A stretch of 32,000 nt of DNA from Thermofilum adornatum (GTDB lineage: Archaea > Thermoproteota > Thermoprotei > Thermofilales > Thermofilaceae), in the NCBI RefSeq assembly GCF_000446015.1, contig NC_022093.1, forward strand, positions 1,500,001-1,532,000, written 5' to 3'. Numbering within the stretch: the first letter of the stretch is position 1; every line of letters begins with the position of its first letter. The position numbers were made by a program, and so were the translations under genes. The notes beneath the pieces were generated by a model. That model saw nothing but the letters and a program-made list of their open reading frames with translations. It ran no database searches and was not told where the DNA came from. Below are positions 9,172 to 28,001 of this stretch, piece by piece.

Positions 9172-9429
9172 ATGGTAATACTTAGTAGTATGGCTAATGT
9201 GAAGATAAGCTTACCCGAAGCCGTCTTTAAAAGAGTAGACGATATATCCAGGTCAATGAAAATAAGCCGCAGCGAGCTCATCACTAGAATCCTAGTCGAG
9301 GCCCTAGGTGTAGAGGCTGACAGGGACCCTCCTAAGTATCCTGCTCTCATATCGAAGCCATACAAAGAGGGGCACTACAGGCTTAGATCTCCTAGGTACC
9401 CAGGCAGAACAATAAAAGAGAGTGGATAG
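9172..9429 (+). CDS. Ribbon-helix-helix (CopG/MetJ-like) DNA-binding protein
   Basis: MANVKISLPEAVFKRVDDISRSMKISRSELITRILVEAL shows the beta-strand/helix/helix RHH pattern. The likely true start is ATG 9190. A possible partner gene begins 14 nt downstream. Confidence 0.6.
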   Translation: MVILSSMANVKISLPEAVFKRVDDISRSMKISRSELITRILVEALGVEADRDPPKYPALISKPYKEGHYRLRSPRYPGRTIKESG

Positions 9430-9442
9430 TTGAAGAGGTTGA

Positions 9443-9916
9443 AGAAGAGTAAGGATAAGCTATTACTTTGCTGAAGACAGGTACATAGAGTTGGGCGAAA
9501 AGATTCCAAATATACCTATCGTACATCTCATTATAAAGGTCGGTAGAAAGCGGGCGAGTGAACCAGCAATAGTTGATATGGCTTTGATGGTGGCATTTAT
9601 CCAAACATGGAAATAGTAAAGATGTTTGAGGGTCTAAGCCACCAACAAAAGTTTTCCTGGAAAACCCATCTACGGCTTATCAGAGTTTGAGGTTTATACG
9701 GCTGAAGCCTTCCTTTATCAAGTAGGAAGTCTGACAAGTCGCGGAGATATTAAAGTTTACATTCCCACAGAGCCCGAGCTTCTCACGGGAGAAGTATTGA
9801 TAGGAAGGGAGATTTTAAACAGCAAGGCTCACTCCATAATTTTGGATATGAAGAGCAAACAAAACGCTAATAGAGCTACCATAGGTTCAACAAAAAGAGT
9901 ACAGTTCCCTATATGA
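9443..9916 (+). pseudogene. Possible decayed retropepsin-like (clan AA aspartic protease family) gene
   Basis: A single frame is open over 9443-9613 and 9638-9916, interrupted by TAG, TAA and TAA within 9614-9637. Neither piece has a usable start. The pieces read ...IPIVHLIIKVGRKRASEPAIVDMALMV... and ...GDIKVYIPTEPELLTGEVLIGREILNSKAHSIILD..., resembling small archaeal aspartic proteases, but D-T-G is replaced by D-M-A. Confidence 0.3.
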
Positions 9917-11339
9917 TCGATTTCACAGGCTTTAAATTGTGAAGCTCGTAGAGCCTTGCTAGAACATTGTCGAGCCTTTCGAGCTGGTCTCCTTCTAGCC
10001 CCTTGGGGGTATGCTTTGCGAGGATTTCTTGGACTTTTGCATGTGCCTTCTCAAGTAGGCTTACTCCCTTAGTTTTTGTTCTGGGCCCTAGATCCCATAT
10101 ACTTGGAATGTATATCTCCTTCCTGTAGTTCTGCCTCGTATGCTTGAGCGCCAAGAAGTTTCCCCTCTTATCTAGCACGCCTTCTCCTAAGACCTGCAAG
10201 GCCATATTGTCTTTTTCGAAGCCCCTCGCGAGTCTATCTGCAACTAATATTGCTTCACTGTCCAGGACAAGTTTTTCTAGAGACTGCACGCTTTCATACT
10301 CAAGCATCCCGGCTCCTGACACTATGTCGAAGCCCGCCATCGCCGCGACCACAGCAGTGTATGTCGTCTCTGCCCCCGCTTGGTAGTCTACCAGCTTAGA
10401 GTCGCTCAAAGCCATGTATGTATGTGTAGGTAGGTCAAGGAGCCTCGCAACGTCTCTATATCCGAGACTTATGAGGACAGCTTCCGGAGAAGTTATAGAT
10501 GCTGTCCCATAGTATGGGTGAATCATCGTGGGGCTACCACCGTATATTATCGGCGCTCCTGGTCGGACTGCCTGGGATATAACTATCCCGCTCAGGTTCT
10601 CTGCGTGGTGCTGTACCAATGCGCCATATATTGTCACAGGTGATGTTGCGCCTAGACCCGGCATCGATATGAGCTCGGCTGGAACGTTTAGCCTAGCAAG
10701 GTCTACAAGGTTCCTCGACGTCACGGTGCTCCAGGACAGGGGAGGTGTGGGGCATATGTCAAATATTGCGAAGGGCTTTTCTGCGTAGTCTTCCCTTATG
10801 CTTGCAAGCATATCTACCATTAGCGGGAGGTTTTCCACCGTAAATGCGCCAGTAACCACTGGCTTCGTGGAATACTTTAGGACAACGTACAGCCTAACAG
10901 CATCTCTCACTTCTACTGGTACGTCTGAAGGCACAAGGGCAGTGCTCTGAGCCCTCAAGCCGGGCGATGCATCGACAAGGGTTACAAGATTCTTTAGGTC
11001 TATAAGGGTAGGGTTTCTAGGCTCCGACGATCCGTAGTCAAGGATACGGATCGCCGCAGACCCTGGGTCAAAGATCCTCGCCCCCTCTCCAAGGACTCCT
11101 ACAAGGTTTCCTTCTCGGTCATAAAGCCTTATTCTCCTTGGCACCGTCTTCAGCGAATCCTCGACAAGGCTCTCAGGCAAAACAACCCTTCCATCCTTCC
11201 TGACACCACCAGCCTTGACAACTATCTCTTCTACGCTTTTATCTTCGAAGAACACTCCAACGGTGCCCAGAACCCTGAGTGCCTCGGCATGTAGTTCTTC
11301 TGCCTCATCCCTGCTAAGCAGGGATAGGTTTGGCTTCAT
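9909..11339 (-). CDS. MttB-superfamily methyltransferase (trimethylamine methyltransferase family, non-pyrrolysine type)
   Basis: The N-terminus LSRDEAEELHAEALRVLGTVGVFFEDKSVEEIVVKAGGVRKDGRVVLPESLVEDSLKTVPRRIRLYDREG fits the MttB (COG5598) family. The 476-aa ORF is uninterrupted with no in-frame TAG. An ATGA overlap links it to the upstream corrinoid gene, and GAGGAGGGGTGGAG (SD) lies upstream. Confidence 0.85.
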   Translation of the reverse strand: MKPNLSLLSRDEAEELHAEALRVLGTVGVFFEDKSVEEIVVKAGGVRKDGRVVLPESLVEDSLKTVPRRIRLYDREGNLVGVLGEGARIFDPGSAAIRILDYGSSEPRNPTLIDLKNLVTLVDASPGLRAQSTALVPSDVPVEVRDAVRLYVVLKYSTKPVVTGAFTVENLPLMVDMLASIREDYAEKPFAIFDICPTPPLSWSTVTSRNLVDLARLNVPAELISMPGLGATSPVTIYGALVQHHAENLSGIVISQAVRPGAPIIYGGSPTMIHPYYGTASITSPEAVLISLGYRDVARLLDLPTHTYMALSDSKLVDYQAGAETTYTAVVAAMAGFDIVSGAGMLEYESVQSLEKLVLDSEAILVADRLARGFEKDNMALQVLGEGVLDKRGNFLALKHTRQNYRKEIYIPSIWDLGPRTKTKGVSLLEKAHAKVQEILAKHTPKGLEGDQLERLDNVLARLYELHNLKPVKSII

Positions 11340-11995
11340 CTAGCTCCACCCCTCCTCTTTGCAAGCATCTCTTTTACTATCCTGACAGACTCGAACGCGT
11401 CCCTACCCCAGACATCTGCTCCTATCTCTCTTACCCATTCCTCAGTTACAGGCGCACCCCCAGCTATTACAATGACCTTTTCTCTAATACCCCTCTTCTT
11501 AAGCTCTTCTATAACGTTTCTCTGCTCAAGCATCGTTGTAGTCATGAGCGCACTCATCCCGACAACGTCCGCGTTATACTTCTCGGCGGCCTCTGCGAAC
11601 CTCTCCGGAGGCACATCAACGCCAAGATCTATAACCTGGAAGCCCTCAGCCTCGAAGACAGCCGCTGCCAGATTCTTGCCAAGCTCGTGTATGTCTCCCC
11701 TCACAGTGCCAAACACAGCTACACCCGTAACCGGAACATCAGATGACCCCTTGATGTGTGGCCTTAGAACATCCATGCTAGCCCTGAAAGCCTCAGCCGA
11801 CGCGACCAACTCGGGGATAAAGTATTCGCCCTTCTCGTAGAGCTCCCCCACGCGCCTCATCGCTGGAACAAGTATGTTCGAGATTATTTCTCTGGGAGAC
11901 AGCCCCTCTTCCAATAGCTTTTGGGTAGCATCAGAAGCAAGCCTATCATCGCCGTCGACAATAGCCCTGTATAGCACTTCGCTAGCATCTGACAT
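11336..11995 (-). CDS. Corrinoid (cobalamin-binding) methyl-carrier protein, MtbC/MttC-like
   Basis: An N-terminal helical cap is followed by a Rossmann B12-binding domain. The D-x-H-x-x-G motif is present (GDIHELGKNL), followed by GFQVIDLGVDVP and MSALMTTT. Confidence 0.88.
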   Translation of the reverse strand: MSDASEVLYRAIVDGDDRLASDATQKLLEEGLSPREIISNILVPAMRRVGELYEKGEYFIPELVASAEAFRASMDVLRPHIKGSSDVPVTGVAVFGTVRGDIHELGKNLAAAVFEAEGFQVIDLGVDVPPERFAEAAEKYNADVVGMSALMTTTMLEQRNVIEELKKRGIREKVIVIAGGAPVTEEWVREIGADVWGRDAFESVRIVKEMLAKRRGGAR

Positions 11996-12022: not shown

Positions 12023-12034
12023 GATTTTTAAACT
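12023..12034 (-). promoter_or_regulatory. TATA-like element (minus strand GTTTAAAAATC) for the corrinoid/MttB operon
   Basis: An AT-rich box is centred about 34 nt upstream of the ATG at 11995, inside the 210-nt gap after the TorD-like gene. It suggests this gene pair has its own promoter. Confidence 0.35.
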
Positions 12035-12205: not shown

Positions 12206-12832
12206 CTAGCAAAACTTGGACTCCTCAAAAAAGGCCCGTTCCGAGGCTACAAATTCCCGTAGTAGCCTAGCCGTACCTCTATAGTTTTCTAGCTTAGCGT
12301 TTTCCTCGAGACACCTCGAATATCCATCGGCCCACTTTTCAATGTGTTCCCGGAAAAGCTTCTCTTGGAGGCACAGATACTCTGGTTGCCGGGTACTAGA
12401 CGCGACGAGGTAGTACATTAGTTCGAGCTCTAGGGCTACATGCTCCAGGGGCAAGCCGACGTCCGGGGCCCTGTCTAGGCAGGCTTCGCGGTAAATCCTT
12501 AGAAGCGAGTCATAGTTGTGGCCGTAGATCGTTCTCTCACCAGTCGCCCAGTATGTCTCGAAGGGGGGACACTTGAGCTCTGGATAGTCGTTCACGAAGA
12601 GCCGAGTATACTCTCCTTTCAGGTCTCCCTGTGAGTTTTCCCAGGCAGTTATCCATGCATCTACAAATTTGTCTATTGTCTCGGGATTCATCTTGACTAA
12701 AGAGACTTGTCTGACGGCTGGCAACAGTGTTTTTAGCTCGTTCTGGGATTCGATGTCGCTCGGAGTATAGAGGGCTAGGCTCAGAACCTTGTACAGTAGT
12801 GCTCTCTCCTCAAAAATCTTTGGACTTAACAA
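12206..12832 (-). CDS. TorD/DmsD-family redox enzyme maturation chaperone
   Basis: EYTRLFVNDYPELKCPPFETYW and LPLEHVALELELMYYL match the TorD family pattern (ey-rLF...cpPyeS-y; pDHia-eLef). TTG start preceded by GGAGAGGT. It is the last gene of the oxidoreductase operon. Confidence 0.75.
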   Translation of the reverse strand: MLSPKIFEERALLYKVLSLALYTPSDIESQNELKTLLPAVRQVSLVKMNPETIDKFVDAWITAWENSQGDLKGEYTRLFVNDYPELKCPPFETYWATGERTIYGHNYDSLLRIYREACLDRAPDVGLPLEHVALELELMYYLVASSTRQPEYLCLQEKLFREHIEKWADGYSRCLEENAKLENYRGTARLLREFVASERAFFEESKFC

Positions 12833-12885
12833 TTTTGACTACCTCTCCAAATAGAAAGGAAAAAGAAAAAATATTTAATTTATTT

Positions 12886-13731
12886 TCACCAGGGTAGCTC
12901 CATTGCGCCGGCGTATACAAGGAGATACCGTGCTAGGAAGCTTTGCAGGATGAGTAGGACTGCAAGTATGAGGAGGTTTGTCTTTGAAGGCTTCTTCTTG
13001 TTGTAGAAGTACACAGCGAATGGTCCAATGAAGCCCAGCAGGTACAGCAGGAGTGTTGCCCACATGTACTCGGTCAACATTAGCTCAACAGAGAACATGA
13101 AAGCCTCAGTCGAGATGTTTGCCAGTGCGAAGTAGAGCGTCATAGTTACGAATGCCAAGAGGGTTGTGATCATCGAGAAGTTGACGAGCTCGCCCGGTAC
13201 ATCCTTTTTAAGAATATAGGCTACCAGTGCATAGAGGCCTACTCCGCTGGAGAGGGCTACGAGGAGGAAAAGCAGTGGTGTAGCTGGGCTCCTCCACAAG
13301 TGGATAGAGCTACGGGCAAGCAGTGTACCAGTATAGGTCATGACGAGGAACGAGAATATAGAGCCCAGTGTTCCCAGGATCTTCATAATCTTCTCGTTAG
13401 CGGCGTAGGGTAGCTTTATGAGTCCGGGTAGAGCGAAGAGCCCCCCGAAAAGCAGTGCAAAAACGTTGAAGAATACGCCCCACGTCATAACTGAGCCAAG
13501 GTTCGGTGTAAGCATGGTGTAGAACGCGGCCTCGGGCTTGCCGAGGTGTGTTATCAGTACGAGTAGACCAAGTAGCAGGGATACCATGCCCGCGAGGGCC
13601 GCCTTGATGTTGAATTCCTTCTCTCCCTTTAGGTAGTAGAGGAAAGCTATGATGAAGGTTGCTACACCCATTCCTCCAAACGTCAAGTCTAGCACTATTT
13701 TAATATCCCAAGCGTGTTGCGGCTCTATCAT
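12886..13731 (-). CDS. NrfD/PsrC-type integral membrane anchor subunit
   Basis: 281 aa with about 8 TM helices, directly downstream of the Fe-S subunit. GAGGTGAGG (SD) lies upstream. Position and topology are as in PsrC/NrfD. Confidence 0.75.
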   Translation of the reverse strand: MIEPQHAWDIKIVLDLTFGGMGVATFIIAFLYYLKGEKEFNIKAALAGMVSLLLGLLVLITHLGKPEAAFYTMLTPNLGSVMTWGVFFNVFALLFGGLFALPGLIKLPYAANEKIMKILGTLGSIFSFLVMTYTGTLLARSSIHLWRSPATPLLFLLVALSSGVGLYALVAYILKKDVPGELVNFSMITTLLAFVTMTLYFALANISTEAFMFSVELMLTEYMWATLLLYLLGFIGPFAVYFYNKKKPSKTNLLILAVLLILQSFLARYLLVYAGAMELPW

Positions 13732-13737
13732 TCATCC

Positions 13738-14340
13738 TCACCTCTTCCTCATGGGAAGAATATAAAACACCTTCGGCTTTGTCCCCTCCTCCTTCTTGAA
13801 TACAGTAGTTGCGCCAGAGTTGACCAGCTTGGATATGGCACTGTTGGGGTCGTCGAGGTCTCCAAACAGCCTTGCACCTGTCGGGCACGTAGTCACACAT
13901 GCAGGATCCATACCCTTCTCCAGTCTGTGCTCGCAGAACGTGCACTTGTCAATCGACCTCAAGTATGGGTCCCAGAACCTGGCACCGTACGGGCACGCTT
14001 GGACGCAGTACTCGCATCCAATGCATTTTGTCTTGTCTACTAGAACAATGCCGTCCTTTGTCTTGAAGCTTGCACCTGTCGGACATACAGAGACACAAGG
14101 CGGGTTCTCGCAGTGCTGGCAAATCATGTGGGTATAGTAGACGGCTACGTTGGGGTATGTTCCCACAATATAGGTGTTAACGTAGGTTCTCTTCTTGAAG
14201 TTCTCAAGAGCCGGCAGACCTTCCGCGATAGCTTTGAATGCTTGCTCCCTGCGGTTCTCGGCTATGCATGCCATCACGCAGGCTCCACACCCGACACATT
14301 TGTTCAGGTCTATTACCATTCCATACCTAGCCATACCCAT
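13738..14340 (-). CDS. 4Fe-4S ferredoxin-type electron-transfer subunit (PsrB/DmsB-like)
   Basis: Four cluster motifs: CVGCGACVMAC, CQHCENPPCVSVCP, CIGCEYCVQACP and CTFCEHRL...CVTTCP. GAGGGGTGA (SD) lies upstream. Confidence 0.9.
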   Translation of the reverse strand: MGMARYGMVIDLNKCVGCGACVMACIAENRREQAFKAIAEGLPALENFKKRTYVNTYIVGTYPNVAVYYTHMICQHCENPPCVSVCPTGASFKTKDGIVLVDKTKCIGCEYCVQACPYGARFWDPYLRSIDKCTFCEHRLEKGMDPACVTTCPTGARLFGDLDDPNSAISKLVNSGATTVFKKEEGTKPKVFYILPMRKR

Positions 14341-14347
14341 TCACCCC

Positions 14348-16873
14348 TCATGCCTTCTCAACACGAACAACAACTTCCTGTGACATGATTCCACCCGCCA
14401 CGGGGTCAGCCTTTACACCTGTCAAAGTATGGTATGGTACACCGAACTTGGTAAAGTGCAGTGCCTCGCTCTTGTGGCCAAAGTCGCTTGAGACCCAGAT
14501 AGTGTCTTCTCTGACAAGGTCTGTCGGGAAGGCGACAGCCTCCACGCTGGCTCCCGTCTCAACACTTATCAGCTTTATCTTGTCGCCCTTCTTTATGCCC
14601 AGGCTCTCAGCAACGCTCCTGTTTATCCATGCCATCCTCTTAAACTCGGGGGTCAGCACTGACAGGAACGGCTCGTCGGCAGTAGACGTGTGCGTCATGG
14701 TGGGGACACGCCCATACACCACATAGAAAGTTGTCTTCCCGTCGGCCTTGCCGTATACCTCTGGCTCTGCCCATGCAACTATGGGATCCCAGTACGGCTG
14801 GTAGCCCTTCTTTGCCTTTATGTTGTTCAATGCGAAGCTAAATATCTCGATCCGTCCAGACGGGGTTAACAGCTGGCCGTTTAGCGTCTTCTGTATCATT
14901 TCCTTGCGGAGCGTCACAGCGTCCTTGACAACGATGAGTCCCTCGCTCTCGAGCTTAGCTACGTCGAGGTTCCTCGCCGAGGCTTGTACCTTGCGTATGC
15001 CTTTTACCCCTTCTTTTTCGTATGCATCTTTGAGCTTTGCTCCCATTGCCTGTGGGTCAGCGGCTCCTAGTGCTTTTGCGAAGTTTACCCAGAACTTGTT
15101 ATAGTAGTCCTCGCCTAGACGTTTCACTATGCCTACGACGATGTCTATAACGTGTCGTGTGTCGTAGAGTGGTTGCACGGCGGCCACACGTGTATGGAAG
15201 CCTAGCACGGGCGCATAAGCCATTCCATAAAGGGGATCATCCCTTTCAAGGAAACTATGCTCGGGCAATACTATGTCGGCGTATAGAACAGTATCGTTCG
15301 GATAAATGTCTACAGCAATAACCTTCTCCAGTTTCTTGAAGGCATTCCTCCACCTTGTAGAGTCGGGGCCTGTCATAGCTAGGTTTGTAGTAAACAGGAA
15401 AACAGTCGAGATCTTGTAGGGGTCTCCCTTCTCGATGGCGTCTAGGAAGCCCTGGAAAGTAAAGCCCTTAGAGGCCATGGCTACGCCCTGCTTTGTCCCC
15501 CATATTCTCATTACGCTTTCCTCGCTGACGTCTGGAGTTGGTGTAGCTGTGCTACCAACACCTGTAATTATTATTCCGTCCTTAATTAGGCCACCAACAA
15601 GGGCATTGAGGATAGCTGCTGCCCTCCACGTCATAACGCTGTTCTTATACTTGGGGTCGTGCCACCCAGTGTCTACTGCGGCTGGCCTAGTCTTTCCGAA
15701 CTCTATTCCGACTTGCCTAATTGTAGCGGCGGGTATGCCGGTTATTTTCTCTGCCCATTCTGGAGTATAATCTGCTACTTTTTCCTTGAGGATCTGGAAG
15801 ACGGGCTTTGCCTTCTTGTCTCCAACCGTAAACTCGCCCTCGAGTGCGGGCAGTATAGCTTCTTCGTGCTTGACTGCCTTGTTCTGTGCAAGGTCCCAGA
15901 CAAGGTACTTGATCTTTCCAGCAGCGTCAGTTCCCGCAGTTAAAGGCGTGCCGTCTTCTGCTACAAGCATCGGTGCGTTTGTAAACTTTCTCAGGAAGTC
16001 TGCGTCGTAGAGCCCCTCAGAAATTACGACGTTGATTAGTGCCAGTAGGAAGGCTAGGTCTGTTCCAGGCCTTATTGGGAGCCAGAGGTCAGCCTTGGCG
16101 GCTGTCTCGCTGAAACGCGGGTCAACAACTACGAGCTTGTAGTTTCCTATTTTCTGGCCTGCCCGTGTCCCGTGCACCACTGAGATGCTTCCAAAGAAGT
16201 TTCTCCTTATAACAACGAGATACTTTATGTTTTCGTAGTCTGTGAGGATCTGAGCGTGAGTGCCTACACCGATAGCACTAGACCATCCGAAAGCTTTGGG
16301 GAAGAAGCATGCCCCTCCGGGTATTCCTATAGCATTGGGAGTGCCAATAGTTTCTGCAAAGGCCTTCATTAAAGGCTCAAGGTAGAGACAGAGGGGCCAG
16401 CCCCCGATCATGGCAACTTCCTTTATTCTTCCCTCAGAGATCAGCTTCTTCAAGTGAGAAGCCACAGCGTCGAGCGCCTGGTCCCAGCTTGCCTCCGTGA
16501 AGCCGGTGAAACTGCCCCTCTGTCCGGGGTCGTTCCTGATAAGCGGCTTTTTCAGCCTGTCCGGGTTATATGTCCTAAACAGTGCAGACTGGCCCCTCGC
16601 ACATATTTTACCAAGGTTTATAGGCCCCTTTGGATTACCCTCAATCTTCTCAATCTTGCCGTCTCTAACCCTAACCAATAGCTGGCACGCTGCAGGACAC
16701 ATCATGCATATTGTGGGAACCCACTTCTCCTCTCCCTGGGCTTCAGTTCTCTGTGTTTGGGGCTTGAGAAGCCTAAGTGTAGGTGTGGACATGGTTGCTG
16801 TTACGCCGACGATCCCAGCGGCCTTGAGGAATTCTCTGCGGCTTAAACTGGTTCTGCTGGTTGTATCGGTCAT
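14348..16873 (-). CDS. Molybdopterin (bis-PGD) oxidoreductase catalytic subunit, TAT-exported, Psr/Phs/Ttr/Arr-like; substrate unknown
   Basis: Twin-arginine signal SRREFLKAAGIVGVTA. N-terminal Fe-S motif CMMCPAACQLLV...ICARG. 841 aa with an A-B-C-chaperone gene order. The candidate Mo/W ligand Cys is in PGGACFFPKAFG. Confidence 0.88.
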   Translation of the reverse strand: MTDTTSRTSLSRREFLKAAGIVGVTATMSTPTLRLLKPQTQRTEAQGEEKWVPTICMMCPAACQLLVRVRDGKIEKIEGNPKGPINLGKICARGQSALFRTYNPDRLKKPLIRNDPGQRGSFTGFTEASWDQALDAVASHLKKLISEGRIKEVAMIGGWPLCLYLEPLMKAFAETIGTPNAIGIPGGACFFPKAFGWSSAIGVGTHAQILTDYENIKYLVVIRRNFFGSISVVHGTRAGQKIGNYKLVVVDPRFSETAAKADLWLPIRPGTDLAFLLALINVVISEGLYDADFLRKFTNAPMLVAEDGTPLTAGTDAAGKIKYLVWDLAQNKAVKHEEAILPALEGEFTVGDKKAKPVFQILKEKVADYTPEWAEKITGIPAATIRQVGIEFGKTRPAAVDTGWHDPKYKNSVMTWRAAAILNALVGGLIKDGIIITGVGSTATPTPDVSEESVMRIWGTKQGVAMASKGFTFQGFLDAIEKGDPYKISTVFLFTTNLAMTGPDSTRWRNAFKKLEKVIAVDIYPNDTVLYADIVLPEHSFLERDDPLYGMAYAPVLGFHTRVAAVQPLYDTRHVIDIVVGIVKRLGEDYYNKFWVNFAKALGAADPQAMGAKLKDAYEKEGVKGIRKVQASARNLDVAKLESEGLIVVKDAVTLRKEMIQKTLNGQLLTPSGRIEIFSFALNNIKAKKGYQPYWDPIVAWAEPEVYGKADGKTTFYVVYGRVPTMTHTSTADEPFLSVLTPEFKRMAWINRSVAESLGIKKGDKIKLISVETGASVEAVAFPTDLVREDTIWVSSDFGHKSEALHFTKFGVPYHTLTGVKADPVAGGIMSQEVVVRVEKA

Positions 16874-17099: not shown

Positions 17100-17115
17100 G
17101 ATGACACGTGTCAAC
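17100..17115. promoter_or_regulatory. Palindromic operator candidate 2: GA-TGACACGTGTCA-AC
   Basis: A perfect 12-bp palindrome at 17102-17113 overlaps the GTG start (17108). It shares G-(T/A)-TGAC-N4-GTCAAC with site 1. The two centres are exactly 50 bp apart. Confidence 0.5.
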
Positions 17116-18424
17116 AAATTTGGAAAAGATAGAGACCTTGAAAACAATTATCAAGCTATTGCATGAGGGGAAAAGCGTCCAGGAGCTAAAGGAACAATAT
17201 TCAGATCTTCTTAGACAGGTTTCACCCTTGGAGATACCATTCCTGGAACAACAGCTAGTAAGAGAAGGACTTGTGTCGGTGAACGATATACTTAAACTGT
17301 GCGATCTACATGTAGAGCTTTTCAGGGAGTCACTCGAAACCAGGACACTACAAGGTGTGCCCAGTGGTCATCCACTGGACCTCCTAATGAAGGAAAACGA
17401 CTGGATTGCAAAGAGGGCCGAGATCCTTGGAATGTATGCCTCCTCTCTATTGGCGGCAGATCAGGCCAGGACTCCTGGTCTTCTGGAAAACATTAACAGG
17501 ATTCTAGGTGACCTGAAAAAGTTGAGGCTACATTACAGGAAGCTCCAGATGATAGTTTTTCCCTACCTTGAGAGGAGGGGCATCATCGCTGTTCCAAGAG
17601 TCCTCTGGGGAAGAGAAGACCAAGCACTCCGCAAACTACGTGAATTGTCAACAGAGATCGATTCCAAGCTGAAGAGCAAAGAAGCTATAGACCACAAAAA
17701 CCTTGCTGGCCGCCTCTTAGAGCTCTCCCGTGAAATACAGGACTTGGCTTTTCGAGAAGCCAAGATTCTGTTCCCAGCACTCTGGACATTGCTTGGCGAA
17801 GGAGAGTGGGTTGCGATACACGAAATTGCCGGCGAATTCGGCTACATTGTGGATGTCGACATACATGCTTGGAAACCTAACGTTGAGCCCGTACTGCCCT
17901 ACCAAATCAAGCCTATAATAACAGATGAACAGCTAGCAAGGGTTCCCGAAGAATTCAGACAAGTCGTCGCCGAAAAACTGGTGCCAGACGACTATCAAGT
18001 AAACCGAGATGGAGACCTAAACCTGTCGACGGGTTTCCTGGACAAAGTTGAATTAGAAGGCATATTCAAGGCTCTTCCACTAGAGATAACCTTTGCCGAC
18101 ACAAACAGGCGAGTCAGGTTATTCACCAAGAGCGAGACAGCAGAAGGGTTCCCCAGGGCGAAAACAATTATTGGCAGGAGGCTAGAGTTCTGCCACCCAC
18201 CAAGGCTCGAAAACTATGTGAAACTAAACGTCGAAAAATTAGAGCGAGGCCAAGAGAGATACAGGGTCTTCTGGACCAGGATGGGAGACAGGATACTCCG
18301 AGTAATTGTTTCTAGGGTAAACGATTCGAATGGACAGCTAGTAGGCATCCTGGAGATAGTCGAAGACTTCACTGAAATTCTTAATAACAGAGACGAAATA
18401 TTAAAGAAAGTAGTGGTACTCTAG
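17108..18424 (+). CDS. DUF438 / hemerythrin-like / PAS domain protein (COG2461-type putative sensor)
   Basis: The N-terminus IETLKTIIKLLHEGKSVQELKEQYSDLLRQVSPLEIPFLEQQLVREG is DUF438-like. The central part has H/E-rich helices (LCDLHVELFRE, LRLHYRKLQMIVFPYLE, FREAKILFPAL). The C-terminal part ITFADTNRRVRLFTKS...IIGRRLEFCHPPR...FWTRMGDRILRVIVSRVNDSNGQLVGILEIVEDFTEI is PAS-like. Confidence 0.75.
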   Translation: MSTNLEKIETLKTIIKLLHEGKSVQELKEQYSDLLRQVSPLEIPFLEQQLVREGLVSVNDILKLCDLHVELFRESLETRTLQGVPSGHPLDLLMKENDWIAKRAEILGMYASSLLAADQARTPGLLENINRILGDLKKLRLHYRKLQMIVFPYLERRGIIAVPRVLWGREDQALRKLRELSTEIDSKLKSKEAIDHKNLAGRLLELSREIQDLAFREAKILFPALWTLLGEGEWVAIHEIAGEFGYIVDVDIHAWKPNVEPVLPYQIKPIITDEQLARVPEEFRQVVAEKLVPDDYQVNRDGDLNLSTGFLDKVELEGIFKALPLEITFADTNRRVRLFTKSETAEGFPRAKTIIGRRLEFCHPPRLENYVKLNVEKLERGQERYRVFWTRMGDRILRVIVSRVNDSNGQLVGILEIVEDFTEILNNRDEILKKVVVL

Positions 18425-18426
18425 CC

Positions 18427-18831
18427 ATGAGAAGCATATTTGAACTTGCATACCGGTACATCGAGCCCGCAGTAAGGAGACAGCTCGTCCTCGAGCTCTA
18501 CAAAAGAGGCGTAGACAGGCGCAGAATAGTAGAACTCGTCGGCATATCGTCCTCGCTCGTTACCCGTTACATAGCTGGGCAAAGAGGCAACATGCTCGAC
18601 CTAACCCCCTACAGGGACGTAACCATGCTTATATCTCAACTCGCCGAGAAATCTATGGGCATGTCAAAGGAACAAGTAGAGGAACAAATATACCGCATTG
18701 TGCTCTACTTTTTGTCCCACAAGTATTTCTGCAATGTGCACCGTGTTCTTGTACCGGACATAGACCCGACAAAATGCCAAATATGTCCAAGCCTCTTCAA
18801 AAACTCTTCTCTAAGCCCAGAGCTTAGATAG
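18427..18831 (+). CDS. Small HTH transcriptional regulator (COG2522-like) with C-terminal Cys/His cluster
   Basis: RRRIVELVGISSSLVTRYIAGQRG is a helix-turn-helix of the gls-s-vS-Y--gkRG type. The C-terminus CNVH-x13-CQIC could bind a metal. It starts 2 nt after the DUF438 stop. Confidence 0.55.
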   Translation: MRSIFELAYRYIEPAVRRQLVLELYKRGVDRRRIVELVGISSSLVTRYIAGQRGNMLDLTPYRDVTMLISQLAEKSMGMSKEQVEEQIYRIVLYFLSHKYFCNVHRVLVPDIDPTKCQICPSLFKNSSLSPELR

Positions 18832-23631: not shown

Positions 23632-25509
23632 CTACTCTAGCTTTAGCCTGTTCCTTATGCGCCTAGTTGCCTCTGAGAGCTCGCTTATCCCGAGCTCTTT
23701 TAGTGTCTCGTCCCGAGGTATGCCGTACTGGTCCCAGCCAAGGTAGTCGAAGTACTCTTTTTTCTGTTTCTCGAGCTCTGTCCTATCCACTGCCTTGCCC
23801 TTGAATGGCCCAGACGGAAGTGGCTCGTAGAACCTGGGCGGGTTGTCGTCGTGTATCCTGGGGTCCCAATAGAGGTCTGGCCCTCCGAGGAGGAGTAACA
23901 CTCTCTGGAGGGAAACTATTCTCCTGGCGTGCTCCCTGAACCATTTTTCGCTAGAGATTTCCCAGCCTGTTATTGCTGTCAGGAATTGGTATGGCAGGTC
24001 GTCTACGGCGTTGAAGGAGCATATGACCGCGGAGTCCTCAAATGCAGCTGTGAACTCGCCCCAAGCCTTCTCTACTGGCAACCTTGGCGGGCTTGTGTGG
24101 TCTCCTCCCTGTACGCCTACAGCATAGGTAAAAGCCTGTGGGAAGTCTTTTCCGCTCCTCGCGCCGTGGGCACCTATGCCTATACCCTTTACGTGTACGG
24201 CGTAGCGCGACAGGTCTTGTCCCTTTAATTTGCTCAGCTTGTCTGCGGCCCTTGCTACTCCCTCTGCTAGTATATCTCCTATGCCCTTCCTGTAGGCTAT
24301 TGCCTCGAGTAGCCTTGCGAACGCCTCGGTGTCTCCCCATTTCAGGTCGAAGCCTACCTCTTCCCTTGTGAGGATCCCCTTCTCGCATAGCTCGGCGGCG
24401 AAGCCGGCAACGTTTCCTGTCTGTATGCCGCACAGGCCTAGGTCGTCTGCTAGGCTCGAGAGGTATATGTTTCCCCTAGGCTCGAAGACGCCGAGGTTGG
24501 GGCCTAGGTACGCCTGTAGCTCGTAGTCCGGCCCGTCCGTAACTGTACCATTGTATTTCCCACCGATTAGCCTCGAGATCTTCATACATGTTGATGGGCA
24601 GCCATAGTCTCCCCAGTACCTCTTGACCCAGTGTGCCTCATAGTTGTTTACGCCCATTGTCCTGGCATCGTGCCACTCTTCCTGCCAGTTCCTTATCGGC
24701 TCGCTACTCGTAAGGTTTGCTACCTCGTATCCACCGCTGCTTGTCCCCCACTGTTTCCAGAAAATGTTCTGGTTCAGCCTGTTCCACGCCTCCCTTACCA
24801 GTAGCTTTACCCATTCTGGGTGCTTGGCCGGCGGCATGGGCCCAAAGCCCTTGGCTACCACGGCCTTGAGCTTCTTGGACCCCATTACAGCCCCGTACCC
24901 GCCGTAGCCCGCTGCATGTGTAAGCTTTGCCATTACAGCGGCTGTCCTGACCATATTTTCTCCGGCTGGCCCTATGTAGACGAAGGAGGGCTCCTTTGTC
25001 AAGCCCACGTGGGCAAGGTTTTTCCTCTTGAGCTCGCCCCAGACCTCGCTGAAGAGCTTCTGGAACGTTTCCCTGCCCCTGAGGCCCCATAGGTGCTCTG
25101 CAGACCTAACCTCGACCTTTTCTCCCTCTATATAGATGTATACGGGGTCCTTCGAGGCTCCCTTTACTATGAGGCCGTCGTAGCCTGCGGCCCGTAGCTC
25201 GATTGCAAGCTCGCTTGACACTACAGAGCCCACGACGCCGTTTGTCTGAGGAGACTTGCCCGAGACAGCGAGCTTTACGCCTGGATAGTAGCCGGTCAGG
25301 GGACCTGTCAGGAATAGTAGGAGGTTTTCGGGCCCCAGCGGGTCCACTTGTTCCCACTTGTGCCCGAGCTCTTTCCAGAGGATGTACGCAGCTAGGCCCC
25401 TGCCCCCTATGAACTTGTAGGCTGTCTCTTCGTCGAGCTCTATTACCCTGTCTTTGTCTCTTGAGAGGTCTACCTCTAGTATTTTCCCGTTATAGCCGGG
25501 TATGTTCAT
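23632..25509 (-). CDS. aor: Aldehyde:ferredoxin oxidoreductase family tungsto/molybdopterin enzyme
   Basis: The N-terminus GKILEVDLSRDKDRVIELDEETAYKFIGGRGLAAYILWKEL is the classic AOR N-terminal domain. 625 aa. An ATGA overlap links it to the upstream ferredoxin gene, and GGTGGTGAG (SD) is present. Confidence 0.9.
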   Translation of the reverse strand: MNIPGYNGKILEVDLSRDKDRVIELDEETAYKFIGGRGLAAYILWKELGHKWEQVDPLGPENLLLFLTGPLTGYYPGVKLAVSGKSPQTNGVVGSVVSSELAIELRAAGYDGLIVKGASKDPVYIYIEGEKVEVRSAEHLWGLRGRETFQKLFSEVWGELKRKNLAHVGLTKEPSFVYIGPAGENMVRTAAVMAKLTHAAGYGGYGAVMGSKKLKAVVAKGFGPMPPAKHPEWVKLLVREAWNRLNQNIFWKQWGTSSGGYEVANLTSSEPIRNWQEEWHDARTMGVNNYEAHWVKRYWGDYGCPSTCMKISRLIGGKYNGTVTDGPDYELQAYLGPNLGVFEPRGNIYLSSLADDLGLCGIQTGNVAGFAAELCEKGILTREEVGFDLKWGDTEAFARLLEAIAYRKGIGDILAEGVARAADKLSKLKGQDLSRYAVHVKGIGIGAHGARSGKDFPQAFTYAVGVQGGDHTSPPRLPVEKAWGEFTAAFEDSAVICSFNAVDDLPYQFLTAITGWEISSEKWFREHARRIVSLQRVLLLLGGPDLYWDPRIHDDNPPRFYEPLPSGPFKGKAVDRTELEKQKKEYFDYLGWDQYGIPRDETLKELGISELSEATRRIRNRLKLE

Positions 25510-26015
25510 TTCTCACCACCATACATTGTCTCGTAGAGCCTTTGTGCTACGGCCTCGGGCAGGGTAGAGTATATCTTGAAGGATACGCTCCGGTAGGGCA
25601 CGACCCTCAGGGCCCCGTAGCCCGCTTCTTGGCAAGCCTTTACGCATTCTGGCTCGCCCCCGCAGAGGTCGCATACAAGTGCCTTTCTCGTCTTCGGGTG
25701 TAGCCTCATGACCTTTCCCGGGCATGCACGTACACAATCTCCACAGCCCGTGCATTTCTCCTCGTCGACTAGCACTGCCCCAGTAGAGTCGTCTACCCTC
25801 AGGGCTGAGTACTTGCATGCCTTCACGCATGGATAGTCCCTGCACTGTGTGCAGAGGTGTGGGACGTCTACTCCTGGGAAGAACTCGAATACCCTTATTC
25901 TGCTTGCCTCTGGCCAGACTGTTCCCTCGTGTTTTAGGCTACATGCAACTTCGCAGAGCCTGCAGCCTGAGCATTTTAGTGGGTCACGTAGAATAAAGAT
26001 AGGTTGCCTTGACAC
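25506..26015 (-). CDS. Four-cluster [4Fe-4S] ferredoxin-like electron-transfer subunit, co-transcribed with AOR
   Basis: 16 Cys in four motifs: CSGCRLCEVAC, CTQCRDYPCVKAC, CTGCGDCVRACP and CDLCGGEPECVKAC. No signal peptide. GTG start at 26015. Confidence 0.85.
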   Translation of the reverse strand: MSRQPIFILRDPLKCSGCRLCEVACSLKHEGTVWPEASRIRVFEFFPGVDVPHLCTQCRDYPCVKACKYSALRVDDSTGAVLVDEEKCTGCGDCVRACPGKVMRLHPKTRKALVCDLCGGEPECVKACQEAGYGALRVVPYRSVSFKIYSTLPEAVAQRLYETMYGGEK

Positions 26016-26093: not shown

Positions 26094-26727
26094 TTATTTG
26101 CCGAGCACCTGTAAAAATGTGTTTTTGACCTCTGAGATGCTGGGCAGTGAGCCAATGATTAACGGTTCCATCTCTGCTCTCCAGCTGTCTTCTATCTGTG
26201 TGACTGCTGAGAAGAATTCTTCTGTGCTAAAACTGAGGTTGTAGAACTGTAGCTTTGCTTCAAGTAGCCCCAAGTCTATGCTGATGCCTCTGTGTATGAG
26301 GAACCATGCGTCGTAGAGGTCTCGTGGGCTTTTCCTCACGTAGAAGGCCCTCAACTTTTCTGCCAGTGCCTCTTTTAGGTCTAGGCCCCAAAGGTATACA
26401 ATGGGTATGCCATATAGGGGCTCGTCCAGCCTGACACTTATAGGTTTTAGCAATGGTTTTTCCCTATGCTGATATCTAGGCGTACATAGCTGGTGTCTTT
26501 TTCTGTCCTGTAGAGCGGCCCCTTGACAGCTACACGTATAGTCAATGTGTATATGTCATCTTTTAGTACCTCCGCTGTGCTTTCGGCTCCGAATAGCCTT
26601 AGAGCTTCAGGTATCTCTCTTGCTTTGTTTGTGGAAATATTAGTGCTTGGAGGTACCTTTTCTCCTCCTGCCAAGGCTCCAGCTTTCTCAGCCTGGCTAT
26701 CTTTATTATTTCTTCTCCACGTAGCAT
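26094..26727 (-). pseudogene. AbiEii/DUF1814 nucleotidyltransferase toxin gene, broken into three frames
   Basis: Piece 1 (26727-26599, 42 aa, not in the ORF track) reads MLRGEEIIKIARLRKLEPWQEEKRYLQALIF.... Piece 2 (26674-26447) reads ...VKGPLYRTEKDTSYVRLDISIG.... Piece 3 (26453-26094) reads ...LKEALAEKLRAFYVRKSPRDLYDAWFLI..., the typical AbiEii C-terminus. The pieces lie in three different frames, and no intact GGTaL/GS-x-D NTase motif is visible. Confidence 0.6.
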
Positions 26728-27322: not shown

Positions 27323-28001
27323 ATGATAGTGGAGCGGGAGATACTTTGTTTCCAGGGGGGGCAAAACAGAGAGGTGCAGAGACAAGATTGCAGTTGAGGA
27401 GGAATACGAGCTTTATATAAATGGGTCCAGGCAGGCTTCGTACATGTGTTCTCCAAATAATATAGAGGAGCTGGCCTACGGCTTCCTAGCAGAGCGGAGC
27501 TCAAAGCCTAAGTCTCCTACACAAATAAGGATTGAGAATGGAAAGATAAAGGTGGATGAAGAGCTGGTTGAGGCGGTCTTCACGAGGAGGGAAGCCAGGT
27601 TCCCTGTCGAAAAGATAATTTCTGCTGTCGAGGCTTTGTACACTAGGGGTTCGGCTTTTCGGGAAACGGGGGCTTTTCACTGTGCGCTTTGCTTTATGCC
27701 AAGCGGCGAAGTATTGTTCCATGTTGAGGACGTTAGCAGGCACTGTGCCGTGGACAAGTGTATAGGGTTCCTGGCAAAGTCAAATATTGAACCCTCAGCT
27801 GTGGGATTTGCCGTGTCCTGTAGGCTCACAAAGAGCATCGTCGAGAAGCTTGCCTCGGTGGGGGTAAGGCTTGTAGCATCAAAGGCGGCTCCCACCCTTC
27901 AGGGAATACAGGTCGCCGAGCAGAACGGTATAACTCTGATAGGCTTCGCTAGGAATAATAGGTTCAACATTTATACGCATCCAGAAAGAATAATTTTTTG
28001 A
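27323..28001 (+). pseudogene. fdhD: FdhD-like sulfurtransferase gene interrupted by a +1 frameshift in a G7 tract
   Basis: The C-terminal part reads FRETGAFHCA...VEDVSRHCAVDKCIG...LVASKAAPTLQGIQVAEQNGITLIGFARNNRFNIYTHPERI, which is the FdhD pattern (TGG-HAA, EDvGRHNAvDK, SAPT, TLvGF-R). The frame is open upstream to 27330 (..KTERCRDKIAVEEEYELYINGSRQASY..) with no start. ATG 27323 in another frame reads MIVEREILCFQGG up to the G7 run (27355-27361). Six Gs would fuse the two frames. Confidence 0.65.

What the first reader, a model, noticed from the sequence alone, without database searches (positions are those of the whole stretch)
9909..11995. Non-pyrrolysine MttB-superfamily methyltransferase plus corrinoid protein in a crenarchaeote-like genome
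The MttB homolog is a continuous 476-codon ORF with no in-frame amber codon. It therefore belongs to the non-Pyl branch, whose characterised members demethylate quaternary amines such as glycine betaine, proline betaine or carnitine rather than trimethylamine. It is translationally coupled (ATGA overlap) to a DxHxxG corrinoid protein. The window contains no MT2-type methyltransferase (methyl-corrinoid to CoM or THF) and no RamA-type reductive activator. The methyl acceptor and the physiological role in this apparently non-methanogenic thermophile-type genome are therefore open.
Basis: partly seen in the sequence, partly recalled or inferred. Interest (0 to 1): 0.65.

Follow-up and report, generated by a model that had tools for sequence, protein, structure and literature searches.

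The report
Orphan MttB-type methyltransferase and corrinoid partner
A Thermofilum-type hot-spring archaeon carries an intact, conserved gene pair for a vitamin-B12 protein and the enzyme that loads a methyl group onto it; the pair belongs to an uncharacterised branch whose relatives sit beside methionine-making enzymes, so it probably feeds methionine synthesis from an unknown methyl donor, not betaine breakdown.

Summary
Window 9909-11339(-) is an uninterrupted 476-codon MttB-superfamily gene (PF06253, E 7e-73). It overlaps by ATGA a 219-aa His-on corrinoid protein gene (11336-11995). No MT2 or RamA lies in the window. The host is a Thermofilum relative (74% identity to T. pendens).

The protein is not like the characterised betaine enzymes:
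- The four glycine-betaine-binding residues of MtgB (Y97/R312/H348/F356) and the catalytic Gly110/Pyl334/Tyr364 of MttB are replaced by Ser94/His306/Leu311/Ser341/Glu349.
- This signature is near-invariant in 118 homologues and shared by most of 86 related genomic loci.

In those loci:
- 28 bacterial clusters encode a MetH-type homocysteine methyltransferase, usually with a MetH reactivation domain.
- Six archaeal loci, in at least three gene arrangements, encode a MetE-type catalytic protein next to the pair.
- One locus has a URO-D-type MT2.

Best reading (confidence about 0.45): this is the methyl-loading half of a corrinoid-dependent homocysteine methylation system, with an unknown donor that is not a betaine. 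Its partner and activase are unlinked or missing in Thermofilum.

The T. pendens homologue (2010) and the bacterial cluster (2022) are already in the literature. This is a new member of a known but biochemically uncharacterised kind.

The parts
11336..11995 (-). Corrinoid (cobamide-binding) protein gene, 219 aa: helical cap domain plus Rossmann B12-binding domain, with His103 as the lower ligand
   Evidence: PF02607 E 1.9e-23 and PF02310 E 2e-31. Motif DIHELG at residues 101-106, SAL at 148-150 and GG at 179-180, with the canonical 41 and 28 residue spacings. TIGR02370 scores 204.9 bits against a cut-off of 215.3. dN/dS against T. pendens is 0.074.
9909..11339 (-). MttB-superfamily substrate:corrinoid methyltransferase (MT1), 476 aa, no pyrrolysine; pocket signature Ser94/His306/Leu311/Ser341/Glu349; TAG stop codon
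   Evidence: PF06253 E 6.6e-73. PDB matches MtgB 6.7e-55 and MttB 1.8e-44. The signature is near-invariant in 118 homologues and shared by most of the 86 related loci examined. dN/dS against the 84% relative is 0.086.
11336..11339 (-). ATGA overlap: the MttB start codon shares bases with the corrinoid gene's stop codon (translational coupling)
   Evidence: Read directly from the sequence. Overlap or zero spacing between the two genes is also seen in T. pendens, Zestosphaera and a Thermoprotei MAG.
11344..11357 (-). Shine-Dalgarno-like GAGGAGGGGTGGAG run ending 4 nt before the MttB ATG
   Evidence: Read directly from the sequence. Its function as a ribosome-binding site for an internal operon gene is inferred.
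12024..12032 (-). TATA-box-like TTTAAAAAT about 33 nt upstream of the corrinoid gene ATG, within the 210-nt gap after the upstream chaperone gene. It suggests a separate transcription unit with a very short leader.
   Evidence: Read directly from the sequence. Promoter function is inferred from archaeal promoter architecture and was not tested.
9889..9898 (-). T-rich run (CTTTTTGTT) directly after the TAG stop; a likely archaeal terminator signal
   Evidence: Read directly from the sequence; function inferred.

Best explanation
**What the two genes are.** They form one small operon. It encodes the methyl-loading half of a corrinoid-dependent methyl-transfer system. The MttB-family TIM-barrel enzyme (MT1) binds a small methylated donor and transfers its methyl group to Co(I) of the cobamide held by the 219-aa His-on corrinoid protein.

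**Clade and donor.** The enzyme belongs to an uncharacterised clade of the superfamily with pocket residues Ser94, His306, Leu311, Ser341 and Glu349. The donor is therefore neither trimethylamine activated through pyrrolysine nor glycine betaine or another carboxylated quaternary amine bound in the MtgB manner. It remains unknown. A cationic N-methyl compound that pairs with the conserved Glu is my guess.

**Acceptor.** The methyl-Co(III) protein is then most likely demethylated by a zinc thiol-methyltransferase that methylates homocysteine to methionine. This would regenerate methionine for the SAM cycle in a nutritionally dependent heterotroph without needing methyl-folate or methyl-pterin.

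**What differs in Thermofilum.** That second enzyme and any Co(II)-reactivating protein are not linked to the pair.

**Shown versus inferred.** Shown: family, motifs, clade, selection, and gene linkage in relatives. Inferred: the acceptor in Thermofilum, the nature of the donor, and the physiological role.
For: **Family and intactness**
- PF06253 and the B12-binding domains match, with complete cobamide-binding motifs.
- Both genes are under strong purifying selection within Thermofilaceae (dN/dS about 0.07-0.09).
- The pair is conserved in T. pendens and in the 84%-identical relative L004. In Infirmifilum SLHALR2 the MttB gene is intact but the corrinoid gene is split by a duplication.

**Distinct clade**
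- Identity to both MtgB and Pyl-MttB is 29-30%.
- The positions equivalent to MtgB Y97/R312/H348/F356 (functions) and MttB Gly110/Pyl334/Tyr364 are S/H/L/S/E. In 118 homologues the counts are S 118, H 114, S 117 and E 115. Most of the 86 loci keep the signature. A neighbour-joining tree separates this clade by a long branch.

**Conserved context across the clade (86 loci)**
- An adjacent corrinoid protein occurs in 51 loci.
- A MetH-type homocysteine S-methyltransferase (PF02574, E 2e-67) occurs in 28 loci.
- A MetH reactivation domain (PF02965) occurs in 32 loci. These usually form a tight co-directional operon, corrinoid protein, Hcy-Smt, activation domain, MttB.
- RACo occurs in 10 loci.

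**Archaeal relatives carry a MetE-type catalytic protein instead**
- A same-strand operon core-MetE, corrinoid protein, MttB is found in a Thermoprotei MAG.
- A convergent arrangement with a divergent RACo is found in Zestosphaera, Sulfolobales and Desulfurococcaceae MAGs.
- A convergent arrangement is also found in a Jordarchaeia MAG (PF01717, E 8e-33).
- These proteins keep GSFP, HxC and DCG motifs. I read these as the MetE homocysteine and zinc sites. That mapping is from my own knowledge of MetE; the residue list is.

**Literature**
- Two unrelated homocysteine-methylating folds linked to one MT1 clade is the main argument.
- Williams et al. 2022 independently proposed methionine synthesis with an unknown donor for the bacterial cluster.
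- Core methionine synthases are known to take methyl groups from corrinoids.
Against: - In the window, and in T. pendens, Infirmifilum and the 84% relative, only the pair is present. No homocysteine methyltransferase or activase is adjacent.
- No Thermofilum-labelled protein appeared among the 120 best homologues of the Zestosphaera RACo or core-MetE. This is weak evidence, because the lists are truncated and mostly unnamed.
- One relative (L007) has a URO-D-type MT2, RACo and an amino-acid permease next to glycine-cleavage genes. This looks catabolic rather than biosynthetic.
- The Ignisphaera aggregans orthologue of the core-MetE lies in a pterin-biosynthesis cluster, not next to a corrinoid protein. 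That enzyme group may therefore use methyl-pterin.
- Roughly 25-30 of the loci show no partner gene at all, although many of these are short contigs.
- No biochemistry exists for any member of the clade.
Confidence: 0.45

Rival explanations
1. Catabolic or assimilatory demethylation of a quaternary amine. MT1 would demethylate a betaine-like osmolyte. The methyl group would go through an unlinked MT2 to a C1 carrier or thiol cofactor, as a carbon, energy or nitrogen source.
For: - All six characterised pyrrolysine-free members are quaternary-amine demethylases.
- Leu at the Pyl position is shared with MtgB.
- One relative (L007, 53% identity) has the classical corrinoid protein, MT1, RACo and URO-D MT2 set, with a permease and glycine-cleavage genes.
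- APC-type permeases flank the cluster in three bacterial loci.
Against: - None of the four MtgB substrate-binding residues is kept. This includes the Arg conserved in all characterised acidic quaternary-amine enzymes.
- No pterin-binding or MtrH-type MT2 recurs among the neighbours of 86 loci, whereas homocysteine methyltransferases do.
- From general knowledge, Thermofilum is a peptide- and sugar-fermenting sulfur respirer with no known C1 oxidation or methanogenesis pathway. This was not tested here.
Confidence: 0.2
2. A split, MetH-like methionine synthase in which the MttB-type barrel replaces the folate domain and binds a methylated pterin (methyl-THF or an archaeal methyl-pterin) rather than an external methyl compound.
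For: - In the bacterial operons the MttB homologue accompanies exactly the other three MetH modules: Hcy, Cob and activation.
- The clade's pocket holds an invariant acidic residue plus His and Ser. Pterin-binding TIM barrels typically have this kind of pocket (my own knowledge).
- The I. aggregans core-MetE orthologue lies among pterin-biosynthesis genes.
Against: - Bacteria with the cluster also encode a normal folate-dependent MetH, which argues for a different donor.
- No member of PF06253 is known to bind pterins.
- Permeases adjacent in four loci suggest an imported substrate.
Confidence: 0.12
3. The pair delivers methyl groups to another acceptor: a low-molecular-weight thiol, a metal or metalloid such as arsenic or selenium, or a macromolecule. 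The acceptor step would use an unrecognised MT2 or would be non-enzymatic.
For: - No recognisable MT2 is linked in any Thermofilaceae locus.
- Acceptor modules vary across the clade: MetH-Hcy, core-MetE and URO-D. The MT1 and corrinoid protein unit is therefore portable.
Against: There is no positive evidence. Neighbours of the pair differ in every Thermofilaceae genome examined. The adjacent Psr-like operon in the window is not conserved next to the pair elsewhere.
Confidence: 0.13
4. An evolutionary remnant. The pair has lost its partners and no longer works in Thermofilum.
For: - Partner genes are absent from all Thermofilaceae loci.
- In Infirmifilum SLHALR2 the corrinoid gene is broken by a 22-bp tandem duplication at the DxH codons.
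- In two other Thermofilaceae genomes the MttB gene has no adjacent corrinoid gene.
Against: - Both window ORFs are intact, with all motifs and clade-invariant residues.
- dN/dS is 0.07-0.09.
- Translational coupling, a TATA-like box and a Shine-Dalgarno-like run are retained.
Confidence: 0.05

Closest known systems
[quoted passage not shown] 2022, Environ Microbiol, PMC9324843)
   Same: - By my comparison this is the same MT1 clade: 41-49% identity, a shared Ser/His/Leu/Ser/Glu pocket and one clade in the neighbour-joining tree.
- The cognate corrinoid protein is of the same type.
- The function proposed in the paper is the one I adopt: methionine synthesis from an unknown methyl donor.
   Different: - The window has only the MT1 and the corrinoid protein. 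There is no Hcy module and no activation domain.
- The host is an archaeon.
- In the archaeal relatives the Hcy module is a MetE-type protein and the activase is RACo, not MetH-derived modules.
- I could not check directly that the paper's sequences are in my clade, because its supplement is not held.
MtgB/MtgC glycine betaine:corrinoid methyltransferase system (Desulfitobacterium hafniense; PDB 2QNE, 9YCE)
   Same: - Same superfamily and length.
- Best solved-structure match (E 7e-55).
- Leu at the pyrrolysine position.
- Shares the SDSK...DxQAG loop and is paired with a cap plus Rossmann corrinoid protein.
   Different: - Only 29.9% identity.
- Y97, R312, H348 and F356 become S94, H306, S341 and E349.
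- No pterin-type MT2 (MtgA) and no RamA nearby.
MttB/MttC trimethylamine methyltransferase of Methanosarcina barkeri (PDB 7XCL-7XCN)
   Same: - Same superfamily.
- The GAGMLE segment is identical.
- The corrinoid protein has the same His-Asp-Ser/Thr ligand triad.
   Different: - No UAG or pyrrolysine; Leu311 takes its place.
- Gly110 and Tyr364, which activate pyrrolysine, are both Ser.
- 29.0% identity.
- TIGR02369 scores 299 bits against a cut-off of 525.
- The host is not a methanogen.
Core (folate-independent) methionine synthases MesA/MesB/MesC and core-MetE (Price et al. 2021, PMC7857596; Deobald et al. 2020, PMC7005905)
   Same: - Same logic as proposed here: a MetE-type catalytic domain takes the methyl group from a corrinoid protein and methylates homocysteine.
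- MetE-type proteins sit next to the corrinoid protein and MttB pair in six archaeal relatives.
   Different: - The predicted donors for the Mes enzymes are CoFeSP or MtrA of central C1 pathways. Here a dedicated MttB-type MT1 would load the corrinoid protein.
- No such MetE-type gene lies in the window.
- I did not test whether the linked archaeal proteins belong to MesA, B or C.
MtgBCDE of Ruegeria pomeroyi (Mausz et al. 2025, PMC12478193)
   Same: One corrinoid protein is shared between an MttB-family MT1 and the homocysteine module of a split MetH. This links methyl-amine demethylation and methionine synthesis.
   Different: - That system is aerobic, uses glycine betaine, and routes methyl groups through a pterin-binding MtgD to and from folate.
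- Its corrinoid protein is phylogenetically distinct.
- Here the pocket is not MtgB-like and no pterin module is seen.

Membership tests
MttB superfamily (PF06253, TIM-barrel substrate:corrinoid methyltransferases) | Full-length match to the family profile above the curated threshold | tested here: met
   245.9 bits against a gathering score of 25, E 6.6e-73, residues 3-462. Full-length PDB matches to MtgB and MttB.
Pyrrolysine-dependent trimethylamine methyltransferase MttB (TIGR02369) | In-frame UAG encoding Pyl334, with Gly110 and Tyr364 that activate it; score above the equivalog cut-off | tested here: not met
   No internal stop. Pyl334 aligns with Leu311, Gly110 with Ser94 and Tyr364 with Ser341. 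TIGR02369 scores 299 bits against a cut-off of 525. The gene's own stop codon is TAG.
MtgB glycine betaine methyltransferase | Aromatic pair Y97/F356 (cation-pi contact with the quaternary N) and R312/H348 (carboxylate binding) | tested here: not met
   The aligned residues are S94, E349, H306 and S341 in the window protein and in nearly all of 118 homologues.
Characterised acidic quaternary-amine methyltransferases MtpB, MtcB, MtyB, MthB | Conserved Arg equivalent to MtgB R312 that pairs with the acidic group; phylogenetic grouping with these enzymes | tested here: inconclusive
   The Arg is replaced by His306 (conservation statement). The sequences of these four enzymes were not available to me, so no tree including them could be made.
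Methylotrophic cognate corrinoid proteins (TIGR02370 type) | Cap domain plus Rossmann domain with DxHxxG, 41 residues, SxL, 26-28 residues, GG (His-on/base-off binding) | tested here: met
   PF02607 plus PF02310. D101/H103/G106, S148/L150 and G179-G180 with spacings of 41 and 28. The TIGR02370 score of 204.9 is just under its 215.3 cut-off.
Ser/His/Leu/Ser/Glu clade of MttB homologues linked to homocysteine methyltransferases (bacterial cluster of Williams et al. 2022) | Sequence membership of the clade (shared pocket signature, tree position) | tested here: met
   The signature SHLSE is identical to that of 57 of 86 loci, and near-identical variants account for most of the rest. The window protein nests in the clade in the neighbour-joining tree. 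Identity to the bacterial members is 41-49%.
Ser/His/Leu/Ser/Glu clade of MttB homologues linked to homocysteine methyltransferases (bacterial cluster of Williams et al. 2022) | Gene cluster also encodes a homocysteine methyltransferase and a corrinoid reactivation protein | tested here: not met
   None in the 32-kb window, nor next to the pair in T. pendens, Infirmifilum or the 84% relative. Elsewhere in the genome: not testable here.
Complete methylotrophic MT1-CoP-MT2-RamA system | MT2 (URO-D, pterin-binding or MtrH type) and an ATP-dependent activase (RACo/RamA) in the genome | not testable with these tools
   Only 32 kb of the genome is available. Homologue lists for RACo and core-MetE show no Thermofilum name but are truncated.

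The most novel reading that the evidence does not exclude
The Ser/His/Leu/Ser/Glu clade of MttB proteins, present in at least several hundred bacterial and archaeal species genomes, is the donor-activating module of a folate-independent, cobamide-dependent methionine synthase. It would draw methyl groups from a still unidentified environmental or metabolic methyl compound. The archaeal form (RACo + corrinoid protein + MttB + MetE-type catalytic protein) would be an independently assembled version of the bacterial split-MetH form. In Thermofilum the loading module would work with an unlinked acceptor enzyme and without a RamA-type activase.
Probability: 0.35. Interest if true: 0.7.

Novelty: new member of a known kind. 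Interest (0 to 1): 0.45.

Why it matters
Only six substrates are known for the thousands of pyrrolysine-free MttB proteins, and all are acidic quaternary amines. This clade has a different, strictly conserved pocket. It keeps company with homocysteine methyltransferases in many phyla.

Identifying its methyl donor would do two things:
- add a new route to methionine that bypasses folate;
- change how 'mttB' hits are read in metagenomes, where they are routinely scored as trimethylamine or betaine use, or as evidence of methylotrophy.

Thermofilum species are cultured and their proteins should be thermostable. The window pair is therefore a practical entry point for biochemistry. For Thermofilum itself, the system would be one of the few anabolic functions retained by an organism that depends on other archaea for growth factors.

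Tried and rejected
**Hypothesis rejected**
- A functional link with the adjacent Psr/Phs-like molybdoenzyme operon, for example TMAO or DMSO reduction feeding the methyltransferase. The adjacency is absent in T. pendens, Infirmifilum and the 84% relative. A 210-nt gap with its own TATA-like box separates the two units.

**Searches that led nowhere**
- Whether Thermofilum encodes RACo or a core-MetE elsewhere:
  - Homologue searches with the Zestosphaera proteins returned no Thermofilum-labelled hit, but only the best 120 are listed and most hits are unnamed.
  - A cluster look-up of ten unnamed NCBI hits returned no names.
- The T. pendens genome paper (Anderson et al. 2008) is not held. My recollection that it mentions a methylamine:corrinoid methyltransferase is own knowledge only.
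- The supplements of Price 2021 and Williams 2022 held nothing usable.
- A PDB sequence search with the linked core-MetE found no solved relative.
- There is no tRNA and no Rfam family in the window, so no tRNA-Pyl and no riboswitch.
- Looking up the window protein itself found only a 3.6-kb metagenome contig, so the source strain was not identified.

**Not done**
- Structure prediction was not run. The tools return no coordinates, so pocket geometry could not have been checked.


Full report
**1. The observation**

Window 9909-11339(-) is one 476-codon ORF with no internal stop. Window 11336-11995(-) is a 219-codon ORF. The two overlap by ATGA, and a GGAGGGGTGGAG run ends 4 nt before the downstream ATG.

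The long ORF matches Pfam MTTB (PF06253) over its whole length (E 6.6e-73). The short one carries B12-binding_2 and B12-binding domains. The corrinoid protein has the complete motif D101-x-H103-x-x-G106, 41 residues, S148-x-L150, 28 residues, GG.

Against solved structures the best matches are glycine betaine methyltransferase MtgB (9YCE/2QNE, E about 1e-55) and pyrrolysine-containing MttB (7XCL, E 2e-44). Pyl334 of MttB aligns with Leu311. The gene ends in TAG, so amber is a stop codon here.

No MT2, RamA/RACo or MetH-type activation domain is present in the window. This holds for Pfam scans of every ORF of at least 110 aa and for a six-frame search with purpose-built HMMs. The window has no tRNA genes and no Rfam matches.

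**2. Host and surroundings**

The closest homologues are an ENA metagenome protein (97%), Thermofilum sp. MAGs (84%), T. pendens (74%), Infirmifilum (66%), other Thermofilaceae (59-65%) and Zestosphaera (57-58%). Window G+C (0.44-0.56) fits the 47.9% reported for T. uzonense.

Upstream on the same strand lies a Psr/Phs-like molybdopterin oxidoreductase operon with a TorD-like chaperone (12206-16873). It is separated from the pair by 210 nt containing a TATA-like TTTAAAAAT about 33 nt before the corrinoid gene ATG. This adjacency is not found in T. pendens, Infirmifilum or the 84% relative. I therefore treat the pair as its own transcription unit.

The conserved unit in Thermofilaceae is just corrinoid gene plus MttB gene, overlapping or abutting. 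Both genes are under strong purifying selection (dN/dS 0.086 and 0.074).

**3. What kind of MttB protein it is**

Picking et al. 2026 showed that MtgB binds glycine betaine through Y97 and F356 (cation-pi) and through R312 and H348 (carboxylate). R312 is conserved in MtcB, MtpB, MthB and MtyB. All known substrates of pyrrolysine-free members are acidic quaternary amines. Li et al. 2023 showed that Gly110 and Tyr364 flank Pyl334 in MttB.

In a MAFFT alignment these hot-spot positions are Ser94, His306, Leu311, Ser341 and Glu349 in the window protein. Among 118 homologues with down to about 43% identity, the counts are:
- S in 118 of 118;
- H in 114;
- L, I or M in 117;
- S in 117;
- E in 115.

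The window protein is 29.9% identical to MtgB and 29.0% to MttB. The NCBIfam equivalog model for Pyl-MttB scores far below its cut-off. The protein is therefore a bona fide superfamily member, but it belongs neither to the MttB nor to the MtgB-type substrate classes. Loss of the Arg, and a conserved Glu where MtgB has the cation-pi Phe, argue against a carboxylated betaine bound in the known manner. The real substrate cannot be read from the sequence.

**4. Context in relatives**

Gene neighbourhoods fetched for individual homologues showed the following.
- Thermofilaceae have only the pair, or the MttB gene alone next to a RuBisCO gene.
- Zestosphaera has a divergent RACo activase and a convergent 331-aa MetE-type catalytic protein (PF01717 above the gathering score) flanking the pair.
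- A 53% relative has corrinoid protein, MttB, RACo, URO-D-type MT2 and an amino-acid permease.
- A Thermoprotei MAG has a tight same-strand operon, MetE-type protein, corrinoid protein, MttB.

The 80 best were kept. These came from Thermoproteota, Asgard archaea and Bathyarchaeia, and at 41-49% identity from many bacterial phyla: Krumholzibacteriota, Chloroflexota, Aminicenantes, Acidobacteriota and others.

I called ORFs in all loci, built HMMs from the session's protein sets, clustered the neighbours and identified the recurrent clusters with Pfam. Counts within 5 kb of the MttB gene, in 86 loci:

| Neighbour | Loci |
|---|---|
| Corrinoid protein | 51 |
| MetH reactivation domain (PF02965) | 32 |
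| MetH-type homocysteine S-methyltransferase (PF02574, E 2e-67) | 28 |
| RACo | 10 |
| MetE-type protein (strong HMM hits) | 5 |
| URO-D | 1 |

- The five strong MetE-type hits exclude the Jordarchaeia one, which Pfam later confirmed at E 8e-33.
- The usual bacterial arrangement is a compact co-directional operon: corrinoid protein, Hcy-Smt, activation domain, MttB.
- A variant is RACo, Hcy-Smt, corrinoid protein, MttB.
- No pterin-binding or MtrH-type MT2 formed a recurrent neighbour cluster.
- 78 of the 86 loci have the window's pocket signature or a variant differing only at position 311 or by Gln at position 306. The neighbour-joining tree puts the window protein inside this clade, next to the archaeal members linked to MetE-type proteins and far from MtgB and MttB.

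**5. Interpretation**

One MT1 clade is linked, in different lineages and gene orders, to two evolutionarily unrelated homocysteine-methylating modules. These are the MetH Hcy domain in bacteria and the MetE catalytic domain in archaea. The clade is also linked to two unrelated reactivation devices, the MetH activation domain and RACo. The simplest common denominator is the pathway: methyl donor to Co(I) corrinoid protein to homocysteine, giving methionine.

The archaeal MetE-type proteins retain GSFP, HxC and DCG motifs. I take these to be the homocysteine and zinc sites listed by Price et al.; the mapping rests on my own knowledge of MetE.

This is the hypothesis that Williams et al. 2022 proposed for the bacterial cluster, 'using an unknown methyl donor'. 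It fits the known ability of core methionine synthases to use methyl-corrinoids. It also fits the roseobacter system, in which one corrinoid protein serves both an MttB-family enzyme and the MetH Hcy module.

For the window itself I can only transfer this by homology:
- The loading module is intact and constrained.
- The acceptor enzyme and any activase are not in the 32 kb, nor next to the pair in any Thermofilaceae genome seen.
- I could not inventory a whole Thermofilum genome.

**6. Caveats and rivals**

- The 53% relative with a URO-D MT2, a permease and glycine-cleavage genes shows that the module can serve other acceptors, possibly in catabolism.
- The Ignisphaera aggregans orthologue (50% identity) of the MetE-type protein lies among pterin-biosynthesis genes. 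That enzyme group may use methyl-pterin in some hosts.
- The MttB barrel might itself bind a methyl-pterin, giving a MetH with a swapped donor domain. However, bacteria with the cluster also have ordinary MetH.
- Decay is visible in some Thermofilaceae. Infirmifilum SLHALR2 has a 22-bp tandem duplication that breaks the corrinoid gene at the DxH codons. Two genomes lack an adjacent corrinoid gene.
- The window genes nevertheless show no sign of decay.

I put the homocysteine-directed reading at about 0.45, quaternary-amine catabolism at 0.2, a methyl-pterin donor at 0.12, another acceptor at 0.13, and a dead remnant at 0.05.

**7. Novelty**

Rother and Krzycki already listed the T. pendens gene as a pyrrolysine-free MttB homologue of unknown function in 2010. 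To my recollection the 2008 genome paper also remarked on a methylamine:corrinoid methyltransferase, but that paper is not held. The bacterial cluster and its methionine hypothesis were published in 2022.

In the searched literature I found none of the following:
- the clade-wide pocket signature set against the 2023 and 2026 structural work;
- the archaeal version with a MetE-type partner and RACo;
- the placement of the Thermofilum pair in that clade.

The finding is therefore a new member of a known, biochemically uncharacterised kind. It is moderately interesting, mainly because it offers thermostable proteins from cultured organisms with which to identify the unknown methyl donor.

Noticed in passing
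window 12206-16873 (-): A four-gene molybdopterin oxidoreductase operon: an 841-aa catalytic subunit with a TAT signal (best match PhsA/PsrA-like, below cut-off), a 4Fe-4S subunit, an NrfD-type membrane subunit and a TorD/DmsD-like chaperone. It is probably a sulfur, polysulfide or thiosulfate reductase. Its position next to the methyltransferase pair is not conserved in relatives.
   Followed up: partly
window 17108-18831 (+): A DUF438 + hemerythrin + PAS protein (438 aa) is followed, with overlap, by a small HTH protein. The two are divergent from the molybdoenzyme operon. They may form a redox or O2/NO sensor-regulator pair.
   Followed up: no
window 9172-9904 (+): A ribbon-helix-helix (CopG/antitoxin-like) gene at 9172-9429 is followed by a decayed gene at about 9521-9904. 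The decayed gene is 37% identical to an intact 146-aa protein in the 84% relative (L004) but is interrupted by three in-frame stops. This is a degraded toxin-antitoxin-like module convergent on the MttB gene.
   Followed up: partly
window 23632-26015 (-): An aldehyde:ferredoxin oxidoreductase family (tungstopterin) gene overlaps a 4Fe-4S protein gene. This is the most G+C-rich part of the window (0.54-0.56).
   Followed up: no
window 26094-26453 (-) and 27444-28001 (+): An AbiEii toxin fragment covers only profile positions 123-226 of 238. An FdhD/NarQ homologue covers only positions 95-236 of 237. Both look truncated.
   Followed up: no
L003 9600-9720 (Infirmifilum sp. SLHALR2, CP182482.1): The corrinoid gene carries a 22-bp tandem duplication (TCGGAACCGTTAGGGGCGACAT, twice) exactly at the codons for the DxH cobalt-ligand motif. 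It shifts the frame and splits the gene into cap and Rossmann ORFs. This is either a pseudogene or an assembly error.
   Followed up: partly
L005 10001-12943 and L009 5629-8431 (Thermofilaceae MAGs): The MttB homologue has no adjacent corrinoid gene and is followed on the same strand by a RuBisCO large-subunit gene (PF00016 plus PF02788).
   Followed up: no
L093 10001-16520 (Ignisphaera aggregans): The orthologue (50% identity) of the MetE-type protein that neighbours the pair in Zestosphaera lies here in a pterin-biosynthesis cluster: GCHY-1, MptE-like, Pterin_bind, DHNA and Fae. No corrinoid protein or MttB is nearby.
   Followed up: partly
L032, L033, L051, L052, L060, L070, L081 (Chloroflexota/Anaerolineae MAGs): Two or three MttB paralogues lie in tandem with different pocket signatures (GSALS/GSATS at 24-26% identity to the window protein; AHLCE at 36-38%). 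This suggests arrays of donor-specific MT1 enzymes sharing one corrinoid protein.
   Followed up: no
L019-L028, L040 (Krumholzibacteriota and related MAGs): Downstream of the corrinoid protein, Hcy-Smt, activation domain, MttB operon there is a recurrent trio: an isochorismatase-family hydrolase, a thioredoxin-reductase-like flavoprotein, and a protein of about 320 aa without a Pfam match. They may process the unknown methyl donor or its product.
   Followed up: no
L007 14427-16055; L046 5890-7368; L049 5491-6879; L083 11458-12828: APC-superfamily amino-acid/organocation permease genes flank the cluster in one archaeal and three bacterial loci. This hints at an imported amino-acid-like or cationic substrate.
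   Followed up: no
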